From: Candidatus Falkowbacteria bacterium
GTDB lineage: Bacteria; Patescibacteriota; Patescibacteriia; UBA11705; JABHMO01
DNA length: 64,000 bases
Assembly: GCA_018674305.1 (NCBI GenBank)
Contig: JABHAL010000015.1
Location: forward strand, 128,532-192,531
Reading direction: 5' to 3'
The notes below the pieces were generated by a model. The model worked only from the letters and a program-made list of their open reading frames with translations. It was not told the origin of the DNA and made no database searches. Position 1 is the first letter of the stretch; each line of letters starts with the position of its first letter. The position numbers and the translations under genes were made by a program. Shown here one piece after another: positions 10,166 through 48,917 of the stretch.

Positions 10166-10204
10166 TATTTACTTTTAAATTTTTTAAAAATAAGTATTGT
10201 TATT

Positions 10205-10237
10205 GAAAATTGAGGGCAAGGTGCAAGCACCTTGCCC
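10205..10237 (-). terminator. Intrinsic terminator (GGGCAAGGTG-CAAG-CACCTTGCCC)
   Basis: 10-bp GC stem; lies between small ORF 10244..10489 and paralog 9017..10165. Confidence 0.5.
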
Positions 10238-10243
10238 TGTGAT

Positions 10244-10489
10244 TTATACTCTTCGCCCCTTCATTTTCTTTACCCACGGATGATCCGTGGCCAGGAAAAG
10301 GGTACAGACACCAATGACCGCAGCGGCCACAAAGGCACCAACGCTCCACTTTTCCTTTTCAGTGAAGGGAATGGGGTTTCCCTCCTCATCCTTGAAAGGC
10401 TGCCATGATCCCTTGATCAACAGCACCCCGCCAACAAGCAATGCAACGATCACTAAAACAAACAAAATACCAACAAAGTTCAACATCAC
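10244..10489 (-). CDS. Small 2-TM membrane protein (81 aa) with C-terminal DHPWVKK motif; paralog of 6038..6292
   Basis: Same architecture and C-terminal motif as 6038..6292. Confidence 0.5.
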   Translation of the reverse strand: MMLNFVGILFVLVIVALLVGGVLLIKGSWQPFKDEEGNPIPFTEKEKWSVGAFVAAAVIGVCTLFLATDHPWVKKMKGRRV

Positions 10490-14905: not shown

Positions 14906-15862
14906 CTACTTATCCCAACAAAAATTATTCCCGAAATGGCCAAACTCAGCAGTTTGTTCAAATTGAGGCTTTTTCAACTCTAATAAAGTAATAATCCCTT
15001 TAGGAGTTAAATCATAACCTTGTACATTCTCTTTGCGACCATCAATTTCCACAGTCGCCATTACCGGTTCAGCTACTCCAATTGAATAAGCTAAATGGCA
15101 AATAACTTCTTTGGCATTATTTTTTTGTAAATAATCAACAGCAATTTTTCTGGCCATGTAAGCAGCGGAACGATCGACTTTGGACGGATCCTTGCCTGAA
15201 AATGCACCACCTCCGATAGGAATTCGTGGACCATAGTTATCCACAATCAATTTCCGACCAGTTACACCAGCATCTGCCTCAAATCCTCCTTGTGACCAAT
15301 CACCAGCTGGATTAACATAAATTTTAAGGTTTTCACTTACATTTTTGTCTTTTAACCATTCTTCAACCAGCCCCTTCATTTCTTCTGCTCGAGCATGCTG
15401 AAAGCTGGCCACGACAGTTGAAATTAAATTGTTTTCTAATGTAATTTGAGTTTTGCCATCAGTTTTGTATTTAGAAAATAATACTCGACACAAATCACGT
15501 GAAAGCTTTACCTCCAAAGGAATTAATTCCGGAGTTTCACTGCAAGCATATCCAACCATGATTCCCTGGTCACCAGCACCACCCGGATCAACTCCTCGGG
15601 CAATATCTGGAGATTGCTGAACTAAATTGACACTAACTTGATATTGATCTCCAGCAATTCGTTTAGCAATTTTTTCCGCATCAAAAACCGCACCGGAAGT
15701 AATCTCTCCGGTAATTGTAATAACTCCATGCCCCCCCATTGTCTCTACTGCAACCCGTGAATGTGGGTCTTGCGATAAACAAATATCTAAAATAGCATCG
15801 GAAACACGATCACAAATTTTGTCTGGGTGCATTGGTGAAACTGACTCTGCTGTACGTAACAT
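14906..15862 (-). CDS. metK: S-adenosylmethionine synthetase (compact form, 318 aa)
   Basis: HPDKICDRVSDAILD, GGGAFSGKDPSKVDRSAAY hallmark motifs. Confidence 0.9.
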   Translation of the reverse strand: MLRTAESVSPMHPDKICDRVSDAILDICLSQDPHSRVAVETMGGHGVITITGEITSGAVFDAEKIAKRIAGDQYQVSVNLVQQSPDIARGVDPGGAGDQGIMVGYACSETPELIPLEVKLSRDLCRVLFSKYKTDGKTQITLENNLISTVVASFQHARAEEMKGLVEEWLKDKNVSENLKIYVNPAGDWSQGGFEADAGVTGRKLIVDNYGPRIPIGGGAFSGKDPSKVDRSAAYMARKIAVDYLQKNNAKEVICHLAYSIGVAEPVMATVEIDGRKENVQGYDLTPKGIITLLELKKPQFEQTAEFGHFGNNFCWDK

Positions 15863-16118
15863 AAATTCTTTGGCCGCGATGTAACCAGAAATAGTTTTTG
15901 GTTTTGTTGCAGCTTAATACTTAAATAAAAAATACTCTTTCATCACGAAAAAGTATAATAATTGAATAATTATTTATCTTTCCCGTGCTGGGCTAGAATT
16001 GACACCTTCTTGAATTACCTTCAAGGGTTGTCGACAGGTCATCGGGCTATATCCCTCACTGTACTCTTGATAAATGGTTAAATTGTATATATATAATATT
16101 ACACTAAAATTAATTTTA

Positions 16119-23105: not shown

Positions 23106-25091
23106 TTATTTAAAATTGGCTCGAAACACTCCATCAAAATTTTCCGGCGGATTAACAAGATATTCTTTTAAGCGTTCAACATAAATTTCGATTGGCCGAT
23201 CTTCTGGGTAGGCTTCTGCCAACGACGAAAATAACTTCAAAGCTTCCGGCCATTCTTGATTTAAATATTGCTGTGTTGCTAGTCCAAATTTTTCTAATAA
23301 TTCAGCGTACTTTTTTTTGTCCGCTAATTCACCCAAAACTTGATAAATTTTAATGCCTGTTTGCTTCCCTTTTACAGCAACGGTATCTAAATATCTAAAC
23401 ACAAATTTGTTATTCAATTCAGCTTTTGTTTTTTCACTGGCCAAAATACCAACTCCATAATATTTAGTTAAACTTTCCAGGCGAGATGCTAAGTTCACAT
23501 CATCACCAATGGCCGTGTAATCAAAACGCTGATGTGATCCCAAATTTCCAACCACCACTTCGCCCGTATTTAACCCAATTCCAATCTTTATCTCAGGCAT
23601 CCCTCGGATTTTCATTTTTTTATTAAATTTTACTAATTCACTTTGCATTAATAATGCTGAAGTTAACCCATCTTGGCGATGATTTTCATTATGCAAAGGT
23701 GAATTCCAAAAAGCCATAACCGCATCACCAATAAACTTATCCACAACCCCGTTATTATCCATAATCACAGTTGTCATTTCGGTTAAATAATCGTTTAAGT
23801 AATGTACAAGCTCCTCGGGCTTCATTTTTTCTGACAATGAAGTAAACCCACGAATATCAGAAAACAAAATAGTTAATTCTCGCCTTTCTCCGCCGAGATT
23901 CAATTTTTCTGGTTTAGCAATTAGCTCGTCAACAACTTCCTTAGCTACATATTGGGAAAAACCAGCACGAATTTTTTGTTTTTCTTGCGATTCTAATAAA
24001 TATCGAATCACAAAAGCAGTAGCAAAAATTAAAATTATTAACAAACAAGGATATAAAATCGAAAATAACCAACTGAAGACAAAGGCTACAACTACACCCA
24101 GTAAATATAAAACGATTAACAATACCATGCCCAACAATGAGTAATACCAACGCCAAGCAAAAGCTACAAAAGCACTAATTATTCCTAAAAGTATAAATAG
24201 ACCTAAATACAAAATTTGATTATCAACTTGCTGAACATATGCCGACTGTAAATATGACTCAATCAAGTTAGCCTGAATTTCCACCCCAGACATAGCCTCA
24301 AACTTAGTCGAAGCCGTGAAATATTGATCATGTAAATTGTCTGCAGTAGCACCGACTAAAACAATCTTGCCTTGCAAAACTTGACTATCAAAATCCTGAT
24401 TGTAAACATCTATGAAAGAATATTTTTGAAAAGTATTTTCCGGACCAAAGAATTTAATGCGAAATAATCCGAACTGATCAAAATCAAATTTTTCAGGATA
24501 TAAACTATCAACTTCATTCCACAAGCCAGCTTTTTGTAGAACACCAACAAAAAACGGCGTCACCATTTCATCTTGATATTTAACAAAATTAGGTGTACGT
24601 CGAATCTGCCCATCCTGATCTGTTATCAAAGAGACATGCCCAACAGAGGACCGTTCTTGAATCTCTGATATTGGCCACAAAGTTTCAGTGAACTGAGGAT
24701 CAGCACCTAAAGTCAATTTTAACTCACCCTCCATTGGAAAAACTACTTTGTTCCCCTCCTGCAAAACTGACAACAATTCATTATCTCCACCGCTCGACTC
24801 ACTAAAAGTCATATCATAACCAATAGCTTTCACTCCAGACTTACTCAATTTATCAATCATTTGAGTATGCAAACTTCTTGACCAAGGCCACTCACCAAAA
24901 GACTGAATTGATTTATCATCAATTCCGATCAGAACAATTTGATTAGAAATTTCCTCTTGAACAAATAATTTATCTTTTAACTGTTCATCAAATAAATTAA
25001 AAACCTTAAAATGCAATAGACCGTACATCAAGCCAACACAAACTACAGCTGTTAAAATTGCGCTCAGAATTTTAGTTTGTTTTTTTAACAT
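23106..25091 (-). CDS. CHASE2 sensor domain - class III adenylate/guanylate cyclase
   Basis: N-terminal TM + periplasmic CHASE2-like region, three TM helices, then cyclase core LTILFSDIRGFTSLSE...KFIGDAVMAFWNSP. Confidence 0.8.
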   Translation of the reverse strand: MLKKQTKILSAILTAVVCVGLMYGLLHFKVFNLFDEQLKDKLFVQEEISNQIVLIGIDDKSIQSFGEWPWSRSLHTQMIDKLSKSGVKAIGYDMTFSESSGGDNELLSVLQEGNKVVFPMEGELKLTLGADPQFTETLWPISEIQERSSVGHVSLITDQDGQIRRTPNFVKYQDEMVTPFFVGVLQKAGLWNEVDSLYPEKFDFDQFGLFRIKFFGPENTFQKYSFIDVYNQDFDSQVLQGKIVLVGATADNLHDQYFTASTKFEAMSGVEIQANLIESYLQSAYVQQVDNQILYLGLFILLGIISAFVAFAWRWYYSLLGMVLLIVLYLLGVVVAFVFSWLFSILYPCLLIILIFATAFVIRYLLESQEKQKIRAGFSQYVAKEVVDELIAKPEKLNLGGERRELTILFSDIRGFTSLSEKMKPEELVHYLNDYLTEMTTVIMDNNGVVDKFIGDAVMAFWNSPLHNENHRQDGLTSALLMQSELVKFNKKMKIRGMPEIKIGIGLNTGEVVVGNLGSHQRFDYTAIGDDVNLASRLESLTKYYGVGILASEKTKAELNNKFVFRYLDTVAVKGKQTGIKIYQVLGELADKKKYAELLEKFGLATQQYLNQEWPEALKLFSSLAEAYPEDRPIEIYVERLKEYLVNPPENFDGVFRANFK

Positions 25092-25096
25092 AGCAG

Positions 25097-26809
25097 TTAA
25101 TTTCTCAGTTTAGTTGAAACCAATAGAACTGTAATTGTTGTTTGGCCTGTAAACGAACTATTATCATCTGGTCGATACGTACCAGAAATTGTAGTAGCAC
25201 CACCATTGCGATTGGCTGTAAAAATATTTCCCTTCAAACTACCGACGTCATTACCACTGATTGAATCTCCACTGGCTGACCAATTTATTTGTTCAGTGAC
25301 ATCTAATTTACTACCATCACTATAAATCAAATTGGCGCTAAGCTTTGAACTCGCATCAGGAATTAAGCTTGCTGGATTAGCAGTGACTACTAAACTTTGA
25401 GCCACAGGCACCACCAGCTCCTCAGGCTGATCAGTTGAACCACTGTCAGTGATTGCAGGCTGTTCTTCGGTAACAGCTGGTGTATCAGTTGTGACGGGAT
25501 CTTCTAATGTTGCGGATTCACCAGTAGTAGCTGGTTCATCAGTCGCAATAGATTCAACGGTTGTTTCTTGTTCTGTCGATTCAGAACTCGGCACCTGGTC
25601 ATCTGCGGTTCCATAGGTTGGCTCTGATTCCTGTACTTCAATAACGACTGGTTCAATTTTAGGCTTAGCTAAATCTTGTTCAACTTCTAGCTTTAATTCA
25701 CCTGAGTCAACACTTTGTACTTCCTCTGAATCTAAACCTTGAATTTTATTAGCGATAAATGCAGCAACTGATTGGTCAAAAATCTTGCCTAAAAATACTT
25801 TTCGTAAACCATCATATCGTGACAACTTATTTGTAAATTCTTTATCAAAAGACTGCAGTCTCTGTAATGTTGCTAAAGTCTGTTTATTAAATTCTGCTAT
25901 TTTCAACTGTTCAATTGCCTTGGTTACTTTTGTACTATCAATTAAGCCCTGAATTTCAATTCCTCTTTTGGTTTCTAGCTTTTGTTTATAACTAGACTCT
26001 GTTCCAGACAAAAGCAAACGGATCTTTTCAAACCCGGTTTTAATCCCATACAAAGGATGGTCAGGTAGTAGCCCAACGTCGCTAATAATTGCTTGCCTTT
26101 TTGTCTCTAAATAATTTTCAAAATTTCTATTCATCATTATATTATTGTAAATCCATGGCTCTTCTTTTTGTTGTAACTTTAATTCATCTGTACCAACTGT
26201 TTCCTGCTCATAAGTTTTCTTTACCAAATCATAAGTCAATTTATCACCGGCTGACATATTTGCTAGAATTGCTGCCTCTCCAACAAGACTTACGTCAACA
26301 TCATTTTCATAAACAAAAACTTCAACTGTAATATCCGTTAAAGTTACATTAAAGGCAGTACCACGAACTGTTGCCACAACTGTACCCGCTTCAACTTCAA
26401 AAGCAGCAGAAGGATGCAATAGATTCATTAATCTTGACCAAACCTGTCCTTTTTGCAATTTAACTCTGACCTTGGTCAACAAAGGTGAGTTGGAATTAAT
26501 ATATCCCTTGGTAATAACAACTTGTGAATCTTCAGCGACCATAACTTCCTGAGTATCAAAAAAACTAATTCGCGCTACTGAATTACCATTGGTTTTTATA
26601 ATGTCACCTTCGGAAACAATTTTAAATTTTTCAACTTTCTGAAAATCATTATCAGTACTTCCATTGTGCCAAACATCTCCCTTTTCTACAATTAAAGCGA
26701 TTTCTGGTTCTACCAAGTCTGTTCTCCCCATTGCACCGTTAAACCAAAATATTACTATTACAATGACAACCGCTAAAACAATTAAACCAAAAGTTTTTAT
26801 TTTTTTCAT
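25097..26809 (-). CDS. FecR-domain protein (membrane anchored) with Thr/Glu-rich linker and C-terminal beta domain
   Basis: FecR-like block ISFFDTQEVMVAEDSQVVI...GTVVATVRGTAFNV; directly upstream of the CHASE2 cyclase with a 5-nt gap. Confidence 0.65.
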   Translation of the reverse strand: MKKIKTFGLIVLAVVIVIVIFWFNGAMGRTDLVEPEIALIVEKGDVWHNGSTDNDFQKVEKFKIVSEGDIIKTNGNSVARISFFDTQEVMVAEDSQVVITKGYINSNSPLLTKVRVKLQKGQVWSRLMNLLHPSAAFEVEAGTVVATVRGTAFNVTLTDITVEVFVYENDVDVSLVGEAAILANMSAGDKLTYDLVKKTYEQETVGTDELKLQQKEEPWIYNNIMMNRNFENYLETKRQAIISDVGLLPDHPLYGIKTGFEKIRLLLSGTESSYKQKLETKRGIEIQGLIDSTKVTKAIEQLKIAEFNKQTLATLQRLQSFDKEFTNKLSRYDGLRKVFLGKIFDQSVAAFIANKIQGLDSEEVQSVDSGELKLEVEQDLAKPKIEPVVIEVQESEPTYGTADDQVPSSESTEQETTVESIATDEPATTGESATLEDPVTTDTPAVTEEQPAITDSGSTDQPEELVVPVAQSLVVTANPASLIPDASSKLSANLIYSDGSKLDVTEQINWSASGDSISGNDVGSLKGNIFTANRNGGATTISGTYRPDDNSSFTGQTTITVLLVSTKLRN

Positions 26810-36051: not shown

Positions 36052-36378
36052 TGGCTCTGCGAGTCGGACTCGAACCGACGACCTACTGGTTACACTTATC
36101 CAAGGATTTCTCCAGGGCGTGGACTATATCATCACCATAGCAAATGCTTTAGGCGCGAGGCGCTTCCACCTTGATGTAAAAATCAAAGTGTACTCCTAAA
36201 AAGGATAGTCTCTGAACCTTCCCCAACTAATGTTAGGGCTTGGCTGCGGATTAGCATATCACAATTGACTTAGCCTTCCCGACAATTCACCTCGTTATTC
36301 ACCCCAATGTTTCCAAAGGGGGCTGCGTTATATTTTTGTGTACACAGCCAGTTGCTCTACCAACTGAGCTATCGCAGA
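36052..36378 (-). tRNA. tRNA-Asn(GUU) (alternative reading Thr-UGU) interrupted in the anticodon loop by a 251-nt group I intron (36093..36343); exons 36344..36378 (nt 1-35) and 36052..36092 (nt 36-76 incl. CCA)
   Basis: Exons give a perfect cloverleaf: acceptor TCTGCGA/TCGCAGA, D-arm GCTC-AGTTGGTA-GAGC, anticodon stem ACTGG/CCAGT with loop CUGU|UAA, T-arm GTCGG-TTCGAGT-CCGAC, G73, CCA. Intron has Q AATCCGCAGC (exact), R GTTCAGAGACTA (exact), S ATGATATAGTCC, P AATTGTCGGGAA in canonical order. P1 pairs GGCUGU (exon) with GCAGCC (IGS) giving U.G at the splice site; omega-G precedes 3' exon. Confidence 0.8.
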
Positions 36379-41068: not shown

Positions 41069-41644
41069 CTAAACAACCAAATATGCAATATCTAATCCTA
41101 TATCAAATCTATTATACTTTTCAAAGTTAAAACCCTCTAAGCCAGGATAATGAAAAAGGTCTTCGATCTTCTCATTTTTCAATGCATCATGATAGTTATA
41201 AATAATAATTGACCCACCTGGCGCTAAAAAGTTTTTCAACTTTTCAACTACGCTTTTTCTGTCCTTTTCATATAATAAATATGGTTCCAAAATAATATAC
41301 TTAAATTTTATTTCCGTAGAAAATAAATCGATTGAACAGCAATAAAAGTTTTCATTGAACTGCGGTAAAATCTCTTCTTTGGCCTGCTCGATCGACTGCT
41401 CCAAAAAATCAACGCCATACGGAACAACATTCAGATTAGAAAAGTATGTTAAATGGCGCAACAATAAACCATTACCACAACCTAGATCCAAAACATTGCC
41501 ATCTTCCTCTAGGTATTGCAAAAAACTATTATAAATATCCATTGGATAATCTTTGAAACCGTTTACATTAATCAATCCAGGCGTTTGTTCCAGCCAATAT
41601 TTTTCATAAAACTGTTTTTGTCTTGTCTCGTAAAAATTACTCAT
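41069..41644 (-). CDS. Class I SAM-dependent methyltransferase, co-transcribed with the rSAM gene (8-nt overlap)
   Basis: VLDLGCGNGLLLRHL motif I. Confidence 0.65.
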   Translation of the reverse strand: MSNFYETRQKQFYEKYWLEQTPGLINVNGFKDYPMDIYNSFLQYLEEDGNVLDLGCGNGLLLRHLTYFSNLNVVPYGVDFLEQSIEQAKEEILPQFNENFYCCSIDLFSTEIKFKYIILEPYLLYEKDRKSVVEKLKNFLAPGGSIIIYNYHDALKNEKIEDLFHYPGLEGFNFEKYNRFDIGLDIAYLVV

Positions 41645-42752
41645 AAATACTAGCTTTTATGTGTTCAATTAGCTGTATTGTTTCCCGACAATAAATTGAC
41701 GGTGCGTCATAAGTATCTTTGCCTGTATGTCGGAAAGCGTGGCCACCAGAACCGCAAATATTCAAATAATCACAACTCACACATTGCTCCGGCAAGTTAA
41801 CTTCCGATTGGTGTAGAGCTTTTACTTTGGAATGATCAAAGAAATCAACCAATTTATTTTTCTGTACATTCAGACCAAGTTCCACAAAACCATCTCCACA
41901 AATTCTCAGATCATCAACTAGCTGGATACTTCCATCGGTGTCAATTGTCAACATATCTAAACCTGAATGTCGAATCGAACACATCGGCTCATTAGAACCA
42001 ATTAATAAATCAATTATACTATCAAAAATTCTAATCGACACTTCAGGATCGTCCATAGCTAAATATTTTTCAAAAATCGGTTTTAACCAATCGAAATATT
42101 CACTTTTATTTTCATTATAACCAAAAGGGTTATGCGGATTTCTAAGTGGTAACAAAAAGTCAACTTTTTTCACACCCAATTGCAGGAAATGATCATACAA
42201 TTCCAAAGGATCACTCTTGCTATCTATCACGCACAGTAATCCACGAAAACAGGCTGGATCAGCCTTGGCTTGCAACTGTTTCAAACCGCGGACAATGTTA
42301 TTATATGAATCTTCACCGGACTTCATTTTTGATTTGTTTTGTACATCAGGACCGCCATCCAGACTTATACCGACTTTTAATTTATGTTTGTTAAATAATT
42401 CAATGAATTCATCATTTATCAAGGTTCCATTGGTTTGCATTGAAACACCCACACCTGGAATCTTGTTCAGGTTAGTCAAAATATAATCTAACTTTTCAAG
42501 TCCCAAAATTAATGGTTCACCACCGTGCAAAACAACTTCTAACTGCTCAACCTTATTTTCCTTTACATACTCCGTCAGACGCTGACACACTTTTTCAATC
42601 ATGGCAGAAGAAATAATTGGTGGTTTTTTATTAAAACTATTGTCCGGCCCGCTAAACATAAAACAGTGCGGGCAAGCCATGTTACAAACTTCAGTAACTT
42701 TGAAAACAACTGTACTAATTATTTTGTCGTAAGCTCTTTCATTTATTTTCAT
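41637..42752 (-). CDS. Radical SAM enzyme with C-terminal SPASM/twitch domain (peptide-modifying maturase-like)
   Basis: CNMACPHC (Cx3Cx2C) near N-terminus; C-terminal Cys cluster RICGDG...CVSCDYLNICGSGGH...YC. Confidence 0.8.
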   Translation of the reverse strand: MKINERAYDKIISTVVFKVTEVCNMACPHCFMFSGPDNSFNKKPPIISSAMIEKVCQRLTEYVKENKVEQLEVVLHGGEPLILGLEKLDYILTNLNKIPGVGVSMQTNGTLINDEFIELFNKHKLKVGISLDGGPDVQNKSKMKSGEDSYNNIVRGLKQLQAKADPACFRGLLCVIDSKSDPLELYDHFLQLGVKKVDFLLPLRNPHNPFGYNENKSEYFDWLKPIFEKYLAMDDPEVSIRIFDSIIDLLIGSNEPMCSIRHSGLDMLTIDTDGSIQLVDDLRICGDGFVELGLNVQKNKLVDFFDHSKVKALHQSEVNLPEQCVSCDYLNICGSGGHAFRHTGKDTYDAPSIYCRETIQLIEHIKASIYE

Positions 42753-42813
42753 AGGTGTTCTTAATAATCAAAATAGTTGAGAGCAGGTAAAAAACCCACT
42801 CTCTCAATTCTGA

Positions 42814-42921
42814 CTATCTAAGCCATTGCGCGTGCATTGACTTTAATTCACCGGAAACGTTTTTTGCTTCTACTCTTTTCAGAGCTTTTGCCAAAAGGCT
42901 CATGTTCTTTAAGCTTTTCAT
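42814..42921 (-). CDS. Candidate RiPP precursor peptide (35 aa, no Cys): MKSLKNMSLLAKALKRVEAKNVSGELKSMHAQWLR
   Basis: Unannotated small ORF 61 nt upstream of and co-directional with the rSAM-SPASM gene; helical leader-like N-half and aromatic/basic C-terminal HAQWLR; hairpin TTGAGAG...CTCTCAA between peptide ORF and rSAM gene. Confidence 0.4.
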   Translation of the reverse strand: MKSLKNMSLLAKALKRVEAKNVSGELKSMHAQWLR

Positions 42922-43039
42922 ACTTTTGATTATTTAATTAATTAATTATATAAATAGCCTTGGTTACTAACAGTTAACTATCTTGCTTAGATTATATTGA
43001 TTTTCAATTATGAAAACTACTGAAATTTTCAAGAAAACA

Positions 43040-43066
43040 AAAAAGCACTAAATTTAGTGCTTTATG
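43040..43066. terminator. Bidirectional terminator (AAGCACTAAA/TTTAGTGCTT perfect palindrome flanked by A/T runs)
   Basis: 10-bp palindromic stem between 43144..43521 and the peptide/rSAM cassette. Confidence 0.5.
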
Positions 43067-43143
43067 TTTAAATATATTTGATATTATTTACTAATTTTAA
43101 TTAAAAATCCCACCATTCATGAACAGCAGGATTCAACATACAC

Positions 43144-43521
43144 TTATCTTGGCCACAACCGAGGCTTATTACGTGGTGTAGCATATCGTTGTTTCTTCCA
43201 GTTATATCTACAAAATGTACAGGTATCAGGAGTTTTAATTACCGACAACTGACTTGAAGTTCCCCGGTAACTTAAACAGGCCAAACAAAAATGATAACAT
43301 CTGTAACTTATTCCCATTCCGTATGTATCGACGTGGCTCAACATACAAACCAGTTCTTCTTTGCCACACACAGGACACTTTATTTCAAATATCCGAACCC
43401 AACAACGACGGGCGCCAACCGAGTTTCTAACCTCTTTTAATATTCCATGTAGCTCCCCAACAGGTACAGCATCTAGAACCGTTCTAATCCTTTTTTTCAA
43501 AAGCCATTGTCTAATGCCCAT
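43144..43521 (-). CDS. Zinc-finger hypothetical protein (125 aa)
   Basis: CPVCG...C...HFCLAC...CTFC clusters. Confidence 0.4.
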   Translation of the reverse strand: MGIRQWLLKKRIRTVLDAVPVGELHGILKEVRNSVGARRCWVRIFEIKCPVCGKEELVCMLSHVDTYGMGISYRCYHFCLACLSYRGTSSQLSVIKTPDTCTFCRYNWKKQRYATPRNKPRLWPR

Positions 43522-44172: not shown

Positions 44173-44682
44173 TTATTTCTTCAGCGCCATTTCATAAACA
44201 TCATAATCCGCCTGCGCATAGCAAACAAAAACAACCTTTTCAAAACAATCATCCTCTTTTATAAAATCCTGGACTGTATCAACGGCGATTTTGGCGGCCT
44301 TTCGTTTAGGATAACCGAATACACCGGTTGAGATACACGGAAAAGCGATTGATTGACAATTATTTTCTTTGGCCAATTTTAAACTATTCAAATAACAATC
44401 CCGAAGCAGGTTCGGTTCTTCCCCACCATGCTGACCGTATCTTGGACCAACGGCATGAATAACATATTTTGCTGGTAACTCATGACCTGAAGTTATTTTC
44501 GCCTGACCAGTTTTACAACCACCAAGTTTGGCACATTCAAGTTTCAACTCATAGCCAGCGCCCGAATGGATTGCGCCGTCCACTCCGCCACCACCAAGCA
44601 AAAGTTCGTTAGCCGCATTAACAATTGCGTCAACTTTTTGGTTGGTGATGTCGCCTTTTTCAAGAAAGATTTTAGTTTTCAT
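44173..44682 (-). CDS. Macro domain protein (ADP-ribose/O-acetyl-ADP-ribose processing, YmdB-like)
   Basis: VDAIVNAANELLLGGGGVDGAIH...YVIHAVGP...IAFPCISTGVFGYP. Confidence 0.8.
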   Translation of the reverse strand: MKTKIFLEKGDITNQKVDAIVNAANELLLGGGGVDGAIHSGAGYELKLECAKLGGCKTGQAKITSGHELPAKYVIHAVGPRYGQHGGEEPNLLRDCYLNSLKLAKENNCQSIAFPCISTGVFGYPKRKAAKIAVDTVQDFIKEDDCFEKVVFVCYAQADYDVYEMALKK

Positions 44683-44709: not shown

Positions 44710-45051
44710 TTACAAATTATCCAGTGCTGCTGGCTCACAATTCTCAAACTTACCTAAATCAATTGAGGTCATCTCAAAGTGTCCACCTTCCTGCTCAAAC
44801 CTCATCAAGAACTTATTATCCAAAACAATGTCAAAACCACGACCATTATTGCCACCTCGTGGAAACATGTCTACTTTTCTATTCTCACGACCGCGGGTAA
44901 AAAGAAAAGCTGCCAACCTAAAGTCCATTGATTTCGCACCATAGCGTCGGAATAGATAACGATTAAAGGTGTCTGGGAACATGGCGTACAAGAACTTCTC
45001 TACCATGCTAAGATGAATAACTTTCTGCGTCTCGGGTGTGTGATTTTTCAT
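44710..45051 (-). CDS. Hypothetical protein (113 aa)
   Basis: ORF only. Confidence 0.35.
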   Translation of the reverse strand: MKNHTPETQKVIHLSMVEKFLYAMFPDTFNRYLFRRYGAKSMDFRLAAFLFTRGRENRKVDMFPRGGNNGRGFDIVLDNKFLMRFEQEGGHFEMTSIDLGKFENCEPAALDNL

Positions 45052-45072: not shown

Positions 45073-45462
45073 TTAATAGTTAGCAGTTAATATTTGAAAT
45101 GGAGTATTGTCCGTTCGCCTGAACTTAATTGATTTAACCATTTTGTGGCGAAGGAAGGTTGGTTTATCAATATCAACATCATGGTAAGAACCTTTCCCAC
45201 GATAAACATAGGCCTTCACTTCTCCTGACCGCAACCACCGAAAAGGTAAGGCTGTGCCGTTTATCAATTTCTTCACATCCTTTTCTAGCTTCGGCGGATA
45301 GGCGTATCCTTTGACTTCAGGATCATAGTCCTTACCGAATTTAGCGTCTTTATTATCAATAGTAATTACAACTTCCACAAAGGAATCTGAGGTGTTGGAA
45401 AAGTTCACGACTTTCGTACCGTCAAGTTCTTTGACCTTTAGTTTAAATGGCTCATTTTTCAT
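45073..45462 (-). CDS. Hypothetical protein (129 aa)
   Basis: ORF only. Confidence 0.35.
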   Translation of the reverse strand: MKNEPFKLKVKELDGTKVVNFSNTSDSFVEVVITIDNKDAKFGKDYDPEVKGYAYPPKLEKDVKKLINGTALPFRWLRSGEVKAYVYRGKGSYHDVDIDKPTFLRHKMVKSIKFRRTDNTPFQILTANY

Positions 45463-45468
45463 ATAATT

Positions 45469-46344
45469 TTAATTAGCCAAAAGTACAATTTTCAAGTTCT
45501 GTTTGATTTTAGCATCATTCACAACTCCAAAGATAATTCTAGCTTTATTAGTTAATTGTTTTTGTATTTTATTACAAATGTCGCCCACTTCCTGCATAAG
45601 CAAATCACTGTTGGAATAGATCACGTACAATGAACGAGAAAAATCGGTCTTGGTAGATTTCAGTTGGGTATTTGTAAAAAGTTGATTAACTATGCTCGTC
45701 AGATCCTCTTTTGTGCCACTGATAGAATTGAAAAACAGTTCTCCGCCGTTCTCTATTGTTGAACGCAGATCTGCAAAATCAACATTGATCACTCCACACT
45801 TATTAATAAGGTCAATAATTGACAGGATTACCCCGCTAAGCATATTATCAACCTTTGTTAAACCTTCTGCGATTGGAACTCCTTTTTGGATTGTTTTGTC
45901 ACTATCCAAAACCAAAACTGAATCTATTTCATCATGCAGATAGGCTTTGTTTTGTTCAGACTGTTCTAATGCTAGTTTGCCTTCGAAGAAAAATGGTGAT
46001 GCGCCCACAAAAACTGTTAAAATTCCTTTTTGTCTGGCCAGTTGGGCGATTGTTGCAGTTTGGGTTACGGTAACCTTGTTAGTAAGGTTAGAAATGAAGA
46101 AAACAATATCCGTGTTATCCAGGATTTTTTCTATCTGGGATTTCTTGCTATCAATAGCTTGGCCAGGATTGTCTATATCAACCTGGGTTAATTCTATTTT
46201 CTTGTTAACCTCAAGACCCTCGAACACTTTTTCACGCTTAGCAATTGCAATTCTTTTGACTGACTTTGGCAGGTCATTGAGGCGATTAAGAACGTTACAG
46301 CCTCTATTACCTACGCCAATGATTTTAACCTTGATTGTTGACAT
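45469..46344 (-). CDS. Divergent FtsZ/tubulin-like protein with degenerate GTP-binding loops (291 aa)
   Basis: Aligns with FtsZ core: IKVIGVG.., KGILTVFVGASPFFFEGK, DSVLVLDSDK, GVINVDFADLRSTI (compare FtsZ GLMNVDFADVRTVM). Tubulin signature GGGTGTG replaced by NLTNKVTVTQT, and GVGGGG by GVGNRG. Confidence 0.6.
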   Translation of the reverse strand: MSTIKVKIIGVGNRGCNVLNRLNDLPKSVKRIAIAKREKVFEGLEVNKKIELTQVDIDNPGQAIDSKKSQIEKILDNTDIVFFISNLTNKVTVTQTATIAQLARQKGILTVFVGASPFFFEGKLALEQSEQNKAYLHDEIDSVLVLDSDKTIQKGVPIAEGLTKVDNMLSGVILSIIDLINKCGVINVDFADLRSTIENGGELFFNSISGTKEDLTSIVNQLFTNTQLKSTKTDFSRSLYVIYSNSDLLMQEVGDICNKIQKQLTNKARIIFGVVNDAKIKQNLKIVLLAN

Positions 46345-46394: not shown

Positions 46395-47426
46395 TTATGG
46401 ATATATCAGAGTAAGTTCATTGTTTGTCCATTTATAATATCGAGAAGAAAATCGTTCCCAGACTGCCATATTACGTTTACGATTTTCATTATCTATCCGA
46501 TAAAGATCTAATGTGCTGGACGGATTAACGATAAGTAAATTACTTTCTAGCTGAAAATCTATTCCTAACTCAGATACAAATTCATTTGTTTGATAAATTA
46601 TTCCTGTAATATTATCAATTATTACAAAACGTTGGCAATTTGCCCCACAACCGTAGTCAACAACAGTATAATGCCCGGCGAAATTCGGGCTACCATCATA
46701 AGCATTTGTAAGAATGGTTTTAAATTTTATTCCGACAGGATGGCTATTAAGATCAAGCGGAGAATAAGATGAACTAGCGGCCGTCTCTGATACTGGATAT
46801 TTTTCAAAAGTGGGTAATGAGCTTAAATGTTCTATTTTTTCTACAACTACATTTGGAATACACACTTGATTTCCATTACGGTCCTTTTGATCATAATAAT
46901 CACAATCTGCTCCGTTAAAACTACCTGTAATTCGGTAAATGCCACTCCAATCAACACCGTCACTTTTCGTAACACCATATCTCTTCATCATATAATTTAC
47001 CCAATTTCCAGAAAAATTTTGAGTTATTTGGTTATTAATTTCAAAAAGCTCCTCTTCCTTTGTGTAATCCGGGGCGCCCCAAAACCATTCATAATAATCC
47101 CATATGCTCGCTGGATGGTCTTCGTCAAATATCCAAAACTTTATTCCATCGATTTGAGTCTTGTCAGATATTACGCCGTTCCACTCCACCCGTCCTCCTT
47201 TCGTATTGCTGTTTTGAGCATTAATAGCAAATTCATAGGAAACCTTTTGGTTAGGATCGAGATTGTGTGTCTGAATGTTTGTTTCTAATACCTTTTCGGT
47301 TTTTTCTACTCCCACATCTGCGCTTTTTTTTCTTGTGAATAGTCCTTGATCAAGGCCAATAATAAATATTGCAATTACTAATAAAACTGCGGTTACTATT
47401 AAAATTTGAAGTCGTTCATTTTTCAT
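46395..47426 (-). CDS. Secreted/membrane-anchored hypothetical protein (343 aa)
   Basis: N-terminal TM; Trp/Tyr-rich. Confidence 0.4.
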   Translation of the reverse strand: MKNERLQILIVTAVLLVIAIFIIGLDQGLFTRKKSADVGVEKTEKVLETNIQTHNLDPNQKVSYEFAINAQNSNTKGGRVEWNGVISDKTQIDGIKFWIFDEDHPASIWDYYEWFWGAPDYTKEEELFEINNQITQNFSGNWVNYMMKRYGVTKSDGVDWSGIYRITGSFNGADCDYYDQKDRNGNQVCIPNVVVEKIEHLSSLPTFEKYPVSETAASSSYSPLDLNSHPVGIKFKTILTNAYDGSPNFAGHYTVVDYGCGANCQRFVIIDNITGIIYQTNEFVSELGIDFQLESNLLIVNPSSTLDLYRIDNENRKRNMAVWERFSSRYYKWTNNELTLIYP

Positions 47427-47604: not shown

Positions 47605-47958
47605 TCAAATACCAAAATGTTTTTTTAAGTATAATCTTATTTCATGCATAATATTATTCCCGGCATGACCGATGACGCCGCAGAAACGACTATAATCACA
47701 GGAAGCAATGTTGTAAACCTTAATTAGAGAATTGCTTTTTAAATTATTTTCATTATCAGCATGAATAATTATATCATCATCAACTTTATTCGTTAAATTA
47801 CCTGTCAAAGGTATTACTGTTACTAAATTTGATCTGCTGATCTGCTTATTTGTTTGAATAACCACAGCCGGTCTTTTATCCTGGAATTCATGGCCGATAC
47901 TGGGATCAAACTGCGTCCAAACAATATCACCAAATTCTATTTGTCCTTTTTTGAGCAT
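47605..47958 (-). CDS. MazF/PemK-family type II toxin (endoribonuclease)
   Basis: GDIVWTQFDPSIGHEFQDKRPAVVIQ matches the PemK/MazF N-terminal signature; overlaps upstream antitoxin gene by 22 nt. Confidence 0.75.
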   Translation of the reverse strand: MLKKGQIEFGDIVWTQFDPSIGHEFQDKRPAVVIQTNKQISRSNLVTVIPLTGNLTNKVDDDIIIHADNENNLKSNSLIKVYNIASCDYSRFCGVIGHAGNNIMHEIRLYLKKHFGI

Positions 47959-48800
47959 AAATTTTCATAATAATTATATTCTTCTTTTGATATAGGGCCA
48001 AGATGCTTCAGGGAATCTACGCCAGAAGCATTTTGCCATGCTTGCCAATGATCAACCTGTGCGTATGGCGTTTCTCGGTCAACAGTTAATTCATAAGGAA
48101 TGACTTCATTTTTTCCCATAACCTTCCAGGGAATATCTTCATGAACATATTGCTCAATCTGGGCCGCTGACATATCTGACAATTTAGCAATAACATCATC
48201 AATTACATTTTTTTCTTTGATTGAAAAATTATCCAGATTAAAATCACCCAACGCGACATATCTTTTTTGCTTCATATCATGATATTCTTGAATGAAAATT
48301 TTAATCCGGTTTTCAGTTTCCATTTTCTTAATCACGGTTCGGAATTGAATTGACTGAGGTACCGGACCAAACTGCAATTTAACATAACTCAGGCCAATAA
48401 TCGGTTTGCCCCATTTTTCATAACTATTAAAATCAATAAAGTACAACAATTTATACAAAACAGTTTCTCCGACATTTGGCTTACCGCCACATTTATTTAA
48501 AACATAAAGTAAAACCTGCTGTAATTTCTCAGGATTGAATTCTATATCTTTATTTACTTCTACATCAGAAGGACTAGTTTCATTCTTGTTTATTTCCGAA
48601 ACAAGTAGCTCGTCAATTTTCACGCCAAAAAAAGTGGCGATTTTAGATAATTCAAATACTTCTACTCCCCTGTTTCCGGTTTCAATTGCCGACATGGCTG
48701 GACGAGAGATTCCAACATATTTAGCCAGTTTTGCCTGACTAACCTGTCTTTCTTCGCGCAGACTTTTAATTGTTTGACCCAATTGTTGTTTATTTATCAT
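47937..48800 (-). CDS. Antitoxin-like protein: N-terminal XRE-family HTH + C-terminal DUF4065 (Panacea/SocA-like) domain
   Basis: QAKLAKYVGISRPAMSAIETG HTH; LYKLLYFIDFNSYEKWGKPIIGLSYVKLQFGPVP DUF4065-like; own promoter TTGACA-N17-TATAAT at ~48812-48840 (minus strand). Confidence 0.65.
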   Translation of the reverse strand: MINKQQLGQTIKSLREERQVSQAKLAKYVGISRPAMSAIETGNRGVEVFELSKIATFFGVKIDELLVSEINKNETSPSDVEVNKDIEFNPEKLQQVLLYVLNKCGGKPNVGETVLYKLLYFIDFNSYEKWGKPIIGLSYVKLQFGPVPQSIQFRTVIKKMETENRIKIFIQEYHDMKQKRYVALGDFNLDNFSIKEKNVIDDVIAKLSDMSAAQIEQYVHEDIPWKVMGKNEVIPYELTVDRETPYAQVDHWQAWQNASGVDSLKHLGPISKEEYNYYENLCSKKDK

Positions 48801-48917
48801 ATATCTGAATTATAACACTGCTCAATATACTGTCAAGTGTATATCTTCAATGACAAGATACCTGACAACGGTTAGATGTTTATATTAATTTAAAAACAAA
48901 AAATGCGTCAAAATGGC

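What the first reader, a model, noticed from the sequence alone, without database searches (positions are those of the whole stretch)
45469..46344. FtsZ homolog with destroyed GTP-binding signature (pseudo-FtsZ)
Clear FtsZ core similarity (GILTV.V..PF.FEG, VDS.LV.D.DK, G.INVDFADLR). The tubulin signature GGGTGTG is replaced by NLTNKVTVTQT and the N-terminal G-box by GVGNRGCN. The gene is short (291 aa) with no C-terminal linker or tail. A likely GTPase-dead FtsZ paralog that may regulate or cap filaments.
Basis: partly seen in the sequence, partly recalled or inferred. Interest (0 to 1): 0.55.

Follow-up and report, generated by a model that had tools for sequence, protein, structure and literature searches.

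The report
FtsZ paralogue without GTP pocket
This gene encodes a selected, rare FtsZ relative from tiny uncultured (CPR) bacteria that has lost its own GTP-binding site but kept the loop FtsZ uses to act on a neighbouring subunit, so it probably regulates the real division protein rather than building the ring itself.

Summary
Window 45469..46344 (-) encodes a 291-aa protein with full-length FtsZ-core homology and fold. Loops T2, T3, T4 (GGGTGTG -> NLTNKVTVTQT) and T6/H7 are replaced, T1 is altered (GVGNRGCN), and there is no C-terminal linker or tail. This is not a one-off decay. About 29 sequences (~17 clusters at 50% identity among 1.84 billion representatives), essentially all from Patescibacteria, show the same pattern. 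dN/dS against an 84%-identical relative is 0.11.

The protein is therefore dead on its nucleotide ("top") face and intact on its catalytic ("bottom") face.

Best reading (inferred, about 0.42): it docks by T7 onto the nucleotide-exposed face of canonical FtsZ monomers, or onto the shrinking filament end, as a cap and/or GTPase trigger. The gene is not in a dcw cluster. It usually sits among toxin-antitoxin, restriction and nuclease genes, which suggests an accessory division modulator.

I could not establish whether the same genome has a canonical ftsZ. Verdict: new variant of a known kind, moderately interesting.

The parts
45469..46344 (-). FtsZ-like gene, 291 aa (NCBI MBT5503660.1, HN643_06245, annotated 'hypothetical protein', Ca. 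Falkowbacteria)
   Evidence: ORF; FtsZ homology and fold; identity of the protein; dN/dS 0.11 against L013
46294..46317 (-). T1 loop remnant GVGNRGCN (residues 10-17). The canonical sequence is GVGGGGGN. Arg replaces E. coli G21 in 22 of 29 family members.
46225..46248 (-). T2 position AIAKREKV (residues 33-40). The canonical N-T-D motif is lost in 29 of 29 members.
46159..46185 (-). T3 position QVDIDNPGQ (residues 54-62). The canonical GLGAGxNP motif is lost and shortened. This is the least conserved segment of the family.
46057..46089 (-). T4 position NLTNKVTVTQT (residues 86-96) replacing the tubulin signature GGGTGTG. The family consensus is G-N-L-x-N-x-x-s-x-Y-Q.
45976..45999 (-). T5 loop SPFFFEGK (residues 116-123), retained. 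PFxFEG is present in 24 of 29 members.
45763..45798 (-). T7 synergy loop CGVINVDFADLR (residues 183-194), fully canonical. N187, D189 and D192 correspond to E. coli N207, D209 and D212 and are 100% conserved in 28 members.
45073..45462 (-). 129-aa ORF starting 6 bp downstream, with no known domain. A homologue (39% identity) lies in the same-strand cluster as the FtsZ-like gene of L005/L015/L117.
   Evidence: the structure model was unusable
44710..45051 (-). 113-aa ORF, next downstream, with no known domain. A homologue (30% identity, E 4e-21) directly follows the FtsZ-like gene in L013.
46395..47426 (-). 343-aa ORF with an N-terminal membrane anchor, ending 50 bp upstream of the FtsZ-like gene. 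Homologous fragments lie directly upstream of the FtsZ-like gene in L014. The gene is absent in population variant L008.
48809..48836 (-). Tentative: perfect sigma-70-like promoter (TTGACA-16-TATAAT with TG) upstream of the HTH-Panacea/MazF pair. It is a possible start of a long transcription unit that includes the FtsZ-like gene.
   Evidence: consensus scan only
43042..43063 (-). Tentative: apart from one weak 5-bp-stem match at 44415..44401 inside the Macro gene, this is the first intrinsic-terminator-like hairpin on the minus strand downstream of the gene. It lies after the Macro, NUDIX and 125-aa genes.
   Evidence: consensus scan only

Best explanation
The gene encodes a functional member of a small Patescibacteria-specific FtsZ subfamily under purifying selection. 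The family descended from CPR FtsZ and lost its own nucleotide pocket (T2, T3, T4 and T6/H7 contacts gone, T1 altered). In most members it also lost the C-terminal linker and anchor peptide. It retained the complete T7 catalytic loop and the C-terminal (GAD) domain, which form the 'bottom' polymerisation face.

Shown: homology and fold, the family-wide motif pattern, purifying selection, rarity, and a location outside any dcw cluster.

Inferred: the protein cannot bind GTP and cannot present a normal 'top' face, so it cannot be extended on that side. Its intact bottom face lets it dock onto the nucleotide-exposed top face of a canonical FtsZ monomer, or onto the shrinking (nucleotide-exposed) end of an FtsZ filament. 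There it inserts N187/D189/D192 into the partner's GTP site. The expected consequence is end-capping and/or triggering of GTP hydrolysis in trans, which would change filament length and turnover. Lacking the C-terminal peptide, it would not itself be tethered by FtsA-type anchors.

It usually sits among toxin-antitoxin, restriction-modification, nuclease and recombinase genes, so it is probably an accessory, island-borne modulator of division rather than core divisome machinery.
For: FtsZ-core homology and fold.

Family-wide pattern over 29 members and 7 canonical controls: GGGTGTG in 0/29, NTD in 0/29, GLGAG in 0/29, N-x-D-x-x-D in 28/29.

T7-H8 is the most canonical-like segment (mean BLOSUM 2.76, against -0.2 to 1.5 elsewhere) and the most conserved within the family. 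T3-H3, a top-face element, is the least conserved. N207, D209 and D212 are 100% conserved, while N43, T44, D45, G71, G105-G110, R142, N165 and F182 are replaced.

Purifying selection: dN/dS 0.114, dS 0.75, 222 codons.

A distinct family: about 17 clusters at 50% identity with 434-188 bits, then a canonical continuum at 172 bits and below. The closest canonical FtsZs are from Patescibacteria.

Links to the division machinery: P0133 has lost the signature but keeps a canonical C-terminal 'DVPAFLRRK' peptide. One member is followed directly by FtsE/FtsX-like genes.

The two truncated copies (L013, L023) both keep the T7/GAD half.

Literature: filaments grow at the T7-exposed bottom end and shrink from the nucleotide-exposed end (PMC8936486). 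ARC3, another FtsZ-derived domain, inhibits Z-ring assembly and is reported to raise FtsZ2 GTPase (PMC12232670).

Context among conflict and mobile genes.
Against: No interaction with canonical FtsZ was tested or modelled.

A canonical ftsZ in the same genome was not demonstrated.

T7 conservation could partly reflect structural constraint, since T7 is also highly conserved in canonical FtsZ.

T1 (GG-R-G-x-N), the start of T4 (G-N-L) and T5 (PFxFEG) are conserved within the family, so the top face is not free of constraint and may still bind something.

Engineered top-interface FtsZ mutants are reported to be non-toxic (PMC8936486, citing Du 2018 and Redick 2005), so a pure top-dead subunit might have only mild effects.

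No neighbour is conserved family-wide. The AF2 model is only moderately confident (pLDDT 75.7, and below 50 in the T7 loop).
Confidence: 0.42

Rival explanations
1. Nucleotide-independent self-assembly. The family forms its own head-to-tail filaments or oligomers. Remodelled T1/T4/T5 residues (for example the Arg at E. coli G21 and the conserved G-N-L-x-N motif) replace GTP-Mg as the partner for the T7 aspartates. This would give a static scaffold unrelated to canonical FtsZ dynamics.
For: Within the family, T1 GG-R-G-x-N (Arg in 22/29), G-N-L at T4 (N in 86%) and PFxFEG are conserved, so part of the top face is under constraint. The T7 aspartates are invariant. Small membrane proteins often lie just upstream and could act as anchors.
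Against: T3-H3, a central top-interface element, is the least conserved and most length-variable segment. Six members that lack the T1 Arg (W, Y, K, A, L, A) still keep both T7 aspartates. No precedent is known to me for nucleotide-free polymerisation in the tubulin/FtsZ superfamily (my own knowledge). P0133 retains the FtsA-type C-terminal peptide, which points to the canonical divisome.
Confidence: 0.2
2. A component of a conflict, defence or mobile-element system whose target is not the host's FtsZ ring as such. Examples would be a decoy or sensor for phage-encoded FtsZ inhibitors, or an effector or adaptor working with neighbouring toxin-antitoxin, ADP-ribose (Macro, NUDIX) or nuclease genes.
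For: Most loci are embedded among conflict or mobile genes. The window has MazF with an HTH-Panacea antitoxin, Macro, NUDIX, a Cas4-like DUF2779 protein and a DNA methylase. Type I R-M with Fic and NYN genes lies upstream in L001/L017. L014 has a HigB toxin with an HTH-M78 protein. L019 has a NERD nuclease and FtsK/SpoIIIE; L020 has a PD-(D/E)XK nuclease; L018 has Bro-N. L021 has type I R, DpnI-like and PD-(D/E)XK genes. L004 has a resolvase and AAA_25. The family is patchy and rare and includes decayed copies. Kaur et al. 2020 (PMC7159879) report rare FtsZ/tubulin domains, and predicted-inactive cell-division ATPase domains, as effectors in conflict systems.
Against: There is no PADLOC or PHROGs hit, no family member on IMG/VR viral contigs, and no fixed partner gene as expected for a dedicated defence system. 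Some loci are housekeeping or division-like: FtsEX, NfeD, ribosomal genes, murA. CPR genomes are generally rich in such islands, so adjacency may be incidental.
Confidence: 0.15
3. The pocket is remodelled but still functional. The protein binds GTP or another nucleotide or ligand in a non-canonical way and remains an active, polymerising FtsZ-like enzyme.
For: G19 and G22 of T1, and F137, E138 (the ribose-contacting Glu) and G139 of T5, are retained. The T4 replacement keeps the same length and is conserved.
Against: Every phosphate- and guanine-contacting element is lost together and family-wide: T2 N43/D45, T3 G71, all T4 glycines, R142, N165 and F182. Pfam Tubulin matches only residues 62-151 at 36.3 bits, and the TIGR00065 score is 114.8 against a cut-off of 295.2.
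Confidence: 0.1
4. A decaying relic of a duplicated ftsZ with no function.
For: Two loci carry truncated copies (L013, L023). The family is very rare.
Against: dN/dS is 0.11 at dS 0.75. Intact ORFs at 41-46% identity persist across several candidate phyla, with 49 invariant positions among 9 members. New conserved motifs have arisen.
Confidence: 0.03

Closest known systems
Canonical bacterial FtsZ (TIGR00065; Pfam PF00091 + PF12327), especially Patescibacteria FtsZ
   Same: Same two-domain fold. T5 (PFxFEG) and T7 (GxINVDFADL) are identical, and the core is alignable end to end. The closest canonical relatives are CPR FtsZs.
   Different: The tubulin signature is absent and T2/T3/T6/H7 nucleotide contacts are gone. 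There is no linker or C-terminal peptide. The gene is not in a dcw cluster. The score is far below the equivalog cut-off (114.8 against 295.2 bits).
'Divergent second copy of FtsZ' in some CPR genomes, mentioned in Santana-Molina et al. 2023 (PMC9871819)
   Same: A divergent FtsZ copy in CPR, inferred there to derive from the canonical CPR FtsZ. It may include this family.
   Different: That paper gives phylogenetic placement only, with no motif, selection, context or functional analysis. None of the genome or taxon names I searched appear in its supplements, so identity with this family is unproven.
ARC3 FtsZ-like domain (plant chloroplast division inhibitor)
   Same: An FtsZ-derived domain acting as a regulator of true FtsZ. 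It inhibits Z-ring assembly and is reported to enhance FtsZ2 GTPase (PMC12232670 and references therein). That it lacks GTPase function is from my own knowledge.
   Different: ARC3 is eukaryotic and multi-domain (middle and MORN domains). It arose independently and is not a specific sequence relative. The protein here is a stand-alone FtsZ core.
Thaumarchaeal FtsZ-like protein Nmar_1262
   Same: A natural FtsZ homologue without the GGGTGTG motif. It does not polymerise in yeast (PMC3684127).
   Different: Nmar_1262 has also lost the T7 loop (PMC3684127). The family here keeps T7 perfectly, which is the inverse, asymmetric pattern.
Engineered FtsZ interface mutants and natural end-binders (MciZ, SulA, MipZ)
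   Same: The same logic of blocking one polymerisation face to cap filaments or sequester subunits (PMC8936486, PMC9897490, bioRxiv 10.1101/2020.02.25.965095).
   Different: In the papers I read, MciZ, SulA and MipZ bind the bottom (T7, plus-end) face of FtsZ. This protein would use its own T7 face to occupy the top, nucleotide-exposed (minus-end) face. It is itself FtsZ-derived.
FtsZl1 / FtsZl2 (Makarova & Koonin 2010; Pfam Tubulin_2)
   Same: Divergent FtsZ-superfamily proteins outside the dcw cluster with a patchy distribution.
   Different: Those families were found through, and retain, the GGGTG(S/T)G loop, and they carry extra domains (PMC2875224). There is no Tubulin_2 hit here.

Membership tests
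FtsZ/tubulin superfamily | Two-domain FtsZ fold (Rossmann-like nucleotide-binding domain, helix H7, C-terminal GAD domain) | tested here: met
   PDB phmmer covers residues 4-290 with E 1.9e-27. The AF2 model has pLDDT 75.7, and all top Foldseek hits are FtsZ with E about 1e-21.
Canonical FtsZ (TIGR00065 equivalog) | Score at or above the curated equivalog cut-off (295.2 bits) | tested here: not met
   114.8 bits. Pfam Tubulin scores 36.3 bits, just above its cut-off of 33, over residues 62-151 only. FtsZ_C scores 25.9, below its cut-off of 27.
Canonical FtsZ | Tubulin signature GGGTG(T/S)G in loop T4 | tested here: not met
   NLTNKVTVTQT occupies this position. The signature is present in 0 of 29 family members and 7 of 7 canonical controls.
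Canonical FtsZ | Other nucleotide contacts: T1 GGGGxN, T2 N-T-D, T3 GLGAG, R142, T6 N165, H7 F182 | tested here: not met
   T1 is partly kept (GVGNRGCN). All the others are replaced family-wide.
Canonical FtsZ | T7 synergy loop N-x-D-x-x-D (catalytic aspartates) | tested here: met
   N187, D189 and D192 are present. The motif is present in 28 of 29 family members, and these residues are 100% conserved in 28.
Canonical FtsZ | Variable C-terminal linker plus conserved C-terminal peptide (D-I/V-P-x-F-L-R-K/R) | tested here: not met
   The protein ends at the core ('KIVLLAN'). Only the outlier member P0133 keeps 'DVPAFLRRK'.
Canonical FtsZ | Location in the dcw cluster next to ftsA/ftsQ/mur genes | tested here: not met
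   No dcw genes occur in the 64-kb window or in 10 kb beyond its left edge, and none occurs around other family loci.
Canonical FtsZ | GTP binding, GTPase activity and GTP-dependent polymerisation | not testable with these tools
   Requires biochemistry. The sequence predicts loss of binding.
FtsZl1/FtsZl2 (Pfam Tubulin_2, PF13809) | Match to Tubulin_2, retained GGGTG(S/T)G loop, extra C- or N-terminal domains | tested here: not met
   Tubulin_2 is not among the Pfam hits at E up to 1. There is no signature loop and no extra domains. Features of those families are from PMC2875224 and PMC9871819.
TubZ / PhuZ / CetZ / tubulin | Closer similarity to these subfamilies than to FtsZ | tested here: not met
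   All 49 PDB sequence hits and the top 50 structural hits are FtsZ.
Known anti-phage defence proteins (PADLOC) and phage protein families (PHROGs) | Profile match | tested here: not met
   No hit in either library. No family member occurs in IMG/VR.
FtsZ paralogue (a second copy beside a canonical ftsZ) | A canonical ftsZ present in the same genome | tested here: inconclusive
   No canonical ftsZ in the window, none within 10 kb of other family loci, and none in the left extension. Searches with CPR FtsZ queries returned only Wolfebacteria- and Paceibacterota-type proteins. The whole MAGs could not be read.

The most novel reading that the evidence does not exclude
The family may be the first natural 'half-subunit' of the tubulin/FtsZ superfamily. 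This would be a nucleotide-free protein that either (i) acts as a natural cap and trans-acting GTPase activator at the top (minus) end of FtsZ filaments, a regulator class with no natural example in the papers I read, or, more radically, (ii) polymerises without any nucleotide by using remodelled T1/T4 residues as the docking site for T7. My evidence excludes neither. The probability given is for the more radical reading (ii).
Probability: 0.15. Interest if true: 0.85.

Novelty: new variant of a known kind. Interest (0 to 1): 0.6.

Why it matters
FtsZ dynamics depend on an active site split between two subunits: the nucleotide pocket of one and the T7 loop of the next. Evolution has here produced a stable protein that keeps only the T7 half. 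If it acts on canonical FtsZ, it would be a natural tool for probing filament polarity, the role of the nucleotide-exposed (shrinking) end, and trans-activation of GTP hydrolysis. Those questions are currently addressed with engineered interface mutants. It would also add an FtsZ-derived regulator in bacteria, parallel to plant ARC3, and give a first handle on how division is modulated in CPR/Patescibacteria, whose cell biology is almost unknown. Its frequent position in toxin-antitoxin and restriction islands raises the possibility that mobile or defence islands manipulate host division with a domesticated dominant-negative FtsZ.

Tried and rejected
(1) Same-genome canonical ftsZ. A tblastn of the window found only this gene. 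Two homology searches, with the closest canonical FtsZ (P0138) and with a 'Magasanikbacteria' FtsZ (P0362, really Wolfebacteria-like), found nothing traceable to the family's assemblies by name or contig-length fingerprint. A cluster look-up gave no taxon names. A 10-kb extension beyond the window's left edge showed no ftsZ. The question is unresolved.

(2) Conserved operon partner. All-vs-all BLASTP and jackhmmer over neighbours of 12-13 loci found only pairwise sharing. The similarly sized downstream ORFs in the window and in L001 are not homologous.

(3) Function of the 129-aa, 113-aa and 343-aa neighbours. Pfam, NCBIfam, PADLOC and PHROGs gave no significant hit; the only match was a sub-threshold DUF7841 hit for the 343-aa protein (16.7 bits against a cut-off of 25.2). 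The single-sequence AF2 model of the 129-aa protein had pLDDT 41.5 and was unusable.

(4) Phage origin. No family member occurs on IMG/VR contigs.

(5) Within-population synonymous versus non-synonymous counts were rejected as evidence. Those contigs were retrieved by exact protein identity, so zero non-synonymous changes is true by construction.

(6) The AFDB Foldseek library was unavailable. Du et al. 2018 is not held, so I cited it through PMC8936486.

(7) The supplements of PMC9871819 contain none of the genome or taxon names I searched.

(8) The crude hydrophobicity 'TM=1' flag on the FtsZ-like proteins was dismissed. It reflects buried core strands, not a membrane segment.

(9) P0132, P0137, P0146 and L022 scored high but are tandem canonical FtsZs, not family members.
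Full report
**1. Observation**

Window 45469..46344 (minus strand) is an ATG-initiated ORF of 291 aa. It is an unmistakable FtsZ homologue.
- phmmer against PDB sequences matches 49 distinct FtsZ chains. The best is Aquifex FtsZ at E 1.9e-27, aligned over residues 4-290.
- NCBIfam TIGR00065 (ftsZ) scores 114.8 bits, far below its 295.2-bit equivalog cut-off.
- Pfam Tubulin barely passes (36.3 against 33 bits, residues 62-151 only), and FtsZ_C falls just short (25.9 against 27).
- An AF2 model built on nine family sequences (pLDDT 75.7, pTM 0.72) retrieves only FtsZ structures, with E about 1e-21.
GVGGGGGN aligns to GVGNRGCN (residues 10-17), and GMGGGTGTGAA aligns to NLTNKVTVTQT (residues 86-96). 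The protein stops right after the last core strand, with no linker or tail.

**2. It is a family, not an accident**

The exact protein is NCBI MBT5503660.1 (HN643_06245, 'hypothetical protein', Candidatus Falkowbacteria). It occurs on contigs up to 196,809 bp from Saanich Inlet and other marine metagenomes.
- A search of 5.8 billion proteins found relatives of 296-323 aa at 41-45% identity, from Magasanikbacteria and the 'Patescibacteria group'. There is then a sharp gap to canonical FtsZ at E about 1e-24.
- A profile of the family against 1.84 billion representatives gave about 17 clusters at 50% identity (434 to 188 bits), before a continuum of canonical FtsZ at 172 bits and below.
- The three high-scoring proteins of about 750-840 aa are tandem canonical FtsZs.
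- Among 185,579 species genomes only about ten loci belong to the family: four Magasanikbacteria, one Moraniibacteriota, one Parcubacteria, one 'Patescibacteria group', and two MAGs labelled Gammaproteobacteria whose sequences sit with a Magasanikbacteria member.
- JGI metagenomes added three loci and IMG/VR none.
- The canonical FtsZs closest to the family profile are themselves from Patescibacteria. This fits the remark by Santana-Molina et al. 2023 that some CPR genomes hold a divergent FtsZ copy derived from the CPR FtsZ (PMC9871819). That paper gives no motif or functional analysis, and I could not show that it refers to this family.

**3. Asymmetric motif loss**

I aligned 29 family members with seven canonical FtsZs. 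Results:

| Element | Family members with the canonical motif |
|---|---|
| T4 GGGTGTG | 0/29 |
| T2 N-T-D | 0/29 |
| T3 GLGAG | 0/29 |
| T6 N165 | mostly replaced by Ser |
| T1 | GG-R-G-x-N; Arg at E. coli G21 in 22/29 |
| T5 PFxFEG | 24/29 |
| T7 N-x-D-x-x-D | 28/29 |

- All seven canonical controls keep every motif.
- By segment, T7-H8 is by far the most canonical-like (mean BLOSUM 2.76 against -0.2 to 1.5 elsewhere, 65% consensus identity). It is also the most conserved within the family (0.75).
- T3-H3 is the least conserved segment (0.35) and varies in length.
- N207, D209 and D212 (window N187, D189, D192) are 100% conserved in 28 members. N43, T44, D45, G71, G105-G110, R142, N165 and F182 are all replaced.
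- The T4 replacement is itself conserved (G-N-L-x-N-x-x-s-x-Y-Q), so a new constrained surface has formed.

The protein has lost the nucleotide ('top') half of the split FtsZ active site and kept the catalytic ('bottom') half.

**4. Selection and decay**

- Against the 84%-identical relative on L013, dN/dS is 0.114 (dS 0.75, dN 0.085, 222 codons). This is strong purifying selection.
- The L013 copy lacks homology upstream of residue about 70, so it is either truncated or on a chimeric contig.
- L023 keeps only the C-terminal domain, about 124 aa and 68% identical to P0121, with no N-terminal domain.
- The gene is therefore functional where intact but dispensable in some lineages. Both shortened copies retain the T7-bearing half.
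- One outlier subgroup (P0131, P0133, P0135) is less remodelled. P0133 (358 aa) still carries a canonical C-terminal 'DVPAFLRRK' peptide although its signature is gone. This suggests stepwise loss and a historical link to the divisome's membrane anchors.

**5. Context**

The window contains no other FtsZ. It has no dcw, ftsA or mur genes, and 10 kb beyond its left edge adds none.

The gene lies in a same-strand run: HTH-Panacea antitoxin, MazF toxin, a 343-aa membrane-anchored protein, the FtsZ-like gene, a 129-aa ORF (6-bp gap), a 113-aa ORF, Macro, NUDIX, and a Cys-rich 125-aa ORF.
- A perfect sigma-70-like promoter lies at 48836..48809.
- Apart from one weak 5-bp-stem match at 44415..44401, no terminator-like site occurs on that strand before 43063..43042 (consensus scans only).
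- Further genes nearby are a Cas4-like DUF2779 protein, an N6/N4 DNA methylase with a DUF6996/6997 protein, and a radical SAM/SPASM maturase.

No neighbour is conserved across the family. Each of the three unknown neighbours is linked to an FtsZ-like gene in exactly one other lineage:
- the 343-aa protein in L014;
- the 129-aa protein in L005/L015/L117 (39% identity);
- the 113-aa protein in L013 (30% identity).

The 343-aa gene is absent from one population variant, L008.

Other loci:
- Type I R-M with Fic and NYN genes lies upstream in L001/L017.
- A resolvase, AAA_25, a response-regulator protein, DUF6804 and DUF4190 lie around L004.
- A HigB-like toxin with an HTH-M78 protein lies downstream in L014.
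- ClpB, Bro-N and a trypsin-like protease lie around L018. A NERD nuclease, FtsK/SpoIIIE and FtsK-gamma lie around L019. A PD-(D/E)XK nuclease lies upstream in L020.
- A type I restriction subunit, a DpnI-like nuclease and a PD-(D/E)XK nuclease lie around L021.
- An NfeD/S49 protease lies next to the gene in L005/L015 and L023.
- NUDIX lies next to the gene in L016.
- A retropepsin-like protease precedes it in L197.
- In the P0005 locus an ABC ATPase plus an FtsX-domain permease (FtsEX-like) follow directly downstream.
- Small membrane proteins often lie just upstream but are not homologous to each other.

The dominant theme is accessory, conflict or mobile DNA, with occasional division-related neighbours. 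PADLOC and PHROGs give no hit for the protein. GC content and skew around 45-54 kb deviate only mildly from the rest of the window.

**6. Mechanism (inferred)**

In FtsZ filaments the T7 loop of one subunit completes the GTPase site of the subunit below.
- Filaments grow at the bottom end, where T7 is exposed, and shrink from the nucleotide-exposed end.
- Bottom-interface mutants are toxic cappers and top-interface mutants are not (PMC8936486, citing Du 2018 and Redick 2005).
- MciZ, SulA and MipZ all bind the bottom (plus-end) face (PMC9897490; bioRxiv 10.1101/2020.02.25.965095).

A protein with an intact bottom face and a dead, nucleotide-free top face should dock onto the nucleotide face of a GTP-FtsZ monomer or onto the filament's shrinking end. 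It should insert its conserved aspartates there and could not itself be extended on the other side. It would therefore cap that end and/or trigger hydrolysis in trans.

The closest functional parallel is plant ARC3, whose FtsZ-like domain inhibits Z-ring assembly and reportedly raises FtsZ2 GTPase (PMC12232670). The thaumarchaeal FtsZ-like protein differs because it lost T7 as well (PMC3684127). FtsZl1 and FtsZl2 differ because they keep the signature loop (PMC2875224).

I put 0.42 on this model. Its weak points are that no interaction has been tested and that the presence of a canonical ftsZ in the same genomes is unproven.

**7. Rivals**

- Nucleotide-independent self-assembly (0.20). It is supported by conserved T1-Arg, G-N-L and PFxFEG. 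It is weakened by the hypervariable T3 and by six members that lack the Arg yet keep both aspartates.
- A conflict-system or mobile-island component that is not aimed at the host ring (0.15). It is supported by the contexts and by the precedent of inactive cell-division domains in conflict systems (PMC7159879). It is weakened by the lack of fixed partners and the absence from defence and phage libraries.
- A remodelled but still active pocket (0.10).
- A functionless relic (0.03), contradicted by dN/dS.

**8. Verdict**

- Its interpretation is partly supported. It gains an important correction: the T7 loop is intact and the context is accessory.
- The feature is a new variant of a known kind: an FtsZ subfamily with an inverse, asymmetric motif pattern, at most noticed in passing before.
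- Interest is 0.6.

Noticed in passing
window 36052..36378 (-), intron 36100..36353: Rfam finds a group I intron (80.5 bits), but default ARAGORN finds no tRNA anywhere in the window. ARAGORN in intron mode calls an intron-split tRNA (reported as Thr-TGT with a 251-nt intron in the anticodon loop). The tRNA identity is uncertain.
   Followed up: partly
window 15971..16076 (-) and 14906..15862 (-): A SAM riboswitch (68 bits) lies directly upstream of an S-adenosylmethionine synthetase gene. This is the expected arrangement.
   Followed up: no
window 7908..8786 (-); L199 18194..19069: A 292-aa protein combines a LIM domain with a DA1-like peptidase domain. That architecture is typical of eukaryotes (my own knowledge). 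A 291-aa paralogue with the same weak hits lies about 7 kb beyond the window's left edge.
   Followed up: no
window 41069..43521 (-): A cyclophane-type radical SAM/SPASM peptide maturase (YhhB/FxsB-like, 307 bits) overlaps a SAM methyltransferase gene. A Cys-rich 125-aa ORF lies upstream. This may be a RiPP cluster. PADLOC also gives weak viperin-like hits to the radical SAM domain.
   Followed up: partly
window 47605..48800 (-): A MazF/PemK toxin gene overlaps an HTH-plus-SocA/Panacea antitoxin gene. A perfect -35/-10 promoter match lies at 48836..48809.
   Followed up: partly
L008 versus window 46395..47426: A population-level indel. One Saanich Inlet contig lacks the 343-aa membrane-protein gene, so MazF is followed directly by the FtsZ-like gene.
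   Followed up: partly
P0005 locus (JGI 3300072015, 7070-bp contig; no DNA held): A family member (46% identical to the window protein) is followed on the same strand by an ABC ATPase and an FtsX_ECD/FtsX permease. This is an FtsEX-like cell-division pair, the only clearly division-related neighbour seen.
   Followed up: partly
P0133 (358 aa; from the representative library): An outlier member has lost the tubulin signature but keeps T6 'IPND' and a canonical C-terminal 'DVPAFLRRK' peptide. It looks like an evolutionary intermediate between canonical FtsZ and the tail-less family.
   Followed up: partly
L023 about 9990..10372; L013 1..754: These are shortened copies. L023 keeps only the C-terminal T7/GAD domain, next to an NfeD/S49 protease gene. 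L013 lacks the first ~70 codons. It is unclear whether they are pseudogenes, assembly artefacts or functional stand-alone T7 domains.
   Followed up: partly
window 45692..45943 (+) and equivalents in 8 other loci: An antisense ORF inside the FtsZ-like gene appears 'conserved' in 9 loci by BLASTP. This is most likely a by-product of the conserved sense-strand coding sequence, not a gene.
   Followed up: no
window 23106..26809 (-): A CHASE2-sensor adenylate/guanylate cyclase gene lies next to a gene for a FecR-domain protein. This is a signalling pair in an otherwise annotation-poor region.
   Followed up: no
L020, L021 (contigs CAZCHJ010000021.1, CAZNAO010000039.1): Two MAGs labelled 'uncultured Gammaproteobacteria' carry family members nearly identical in motifs to a Magasanikbacteria member (L019). 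This suggests mis-binning or mislabelling, or otherwise horizontal transfer.
   Followed up: no
L022 3528..5864: Two canonical FtsZ genes lie in tandem (52% and 46% identical to E. coli FtsZ) in an unclassified bacterial MAG. Separately, single proteins of about 750-840 aa with two complete FtsZ cores exist in the protein libraries (P0132, P0137, P0146).
   Followed up: no
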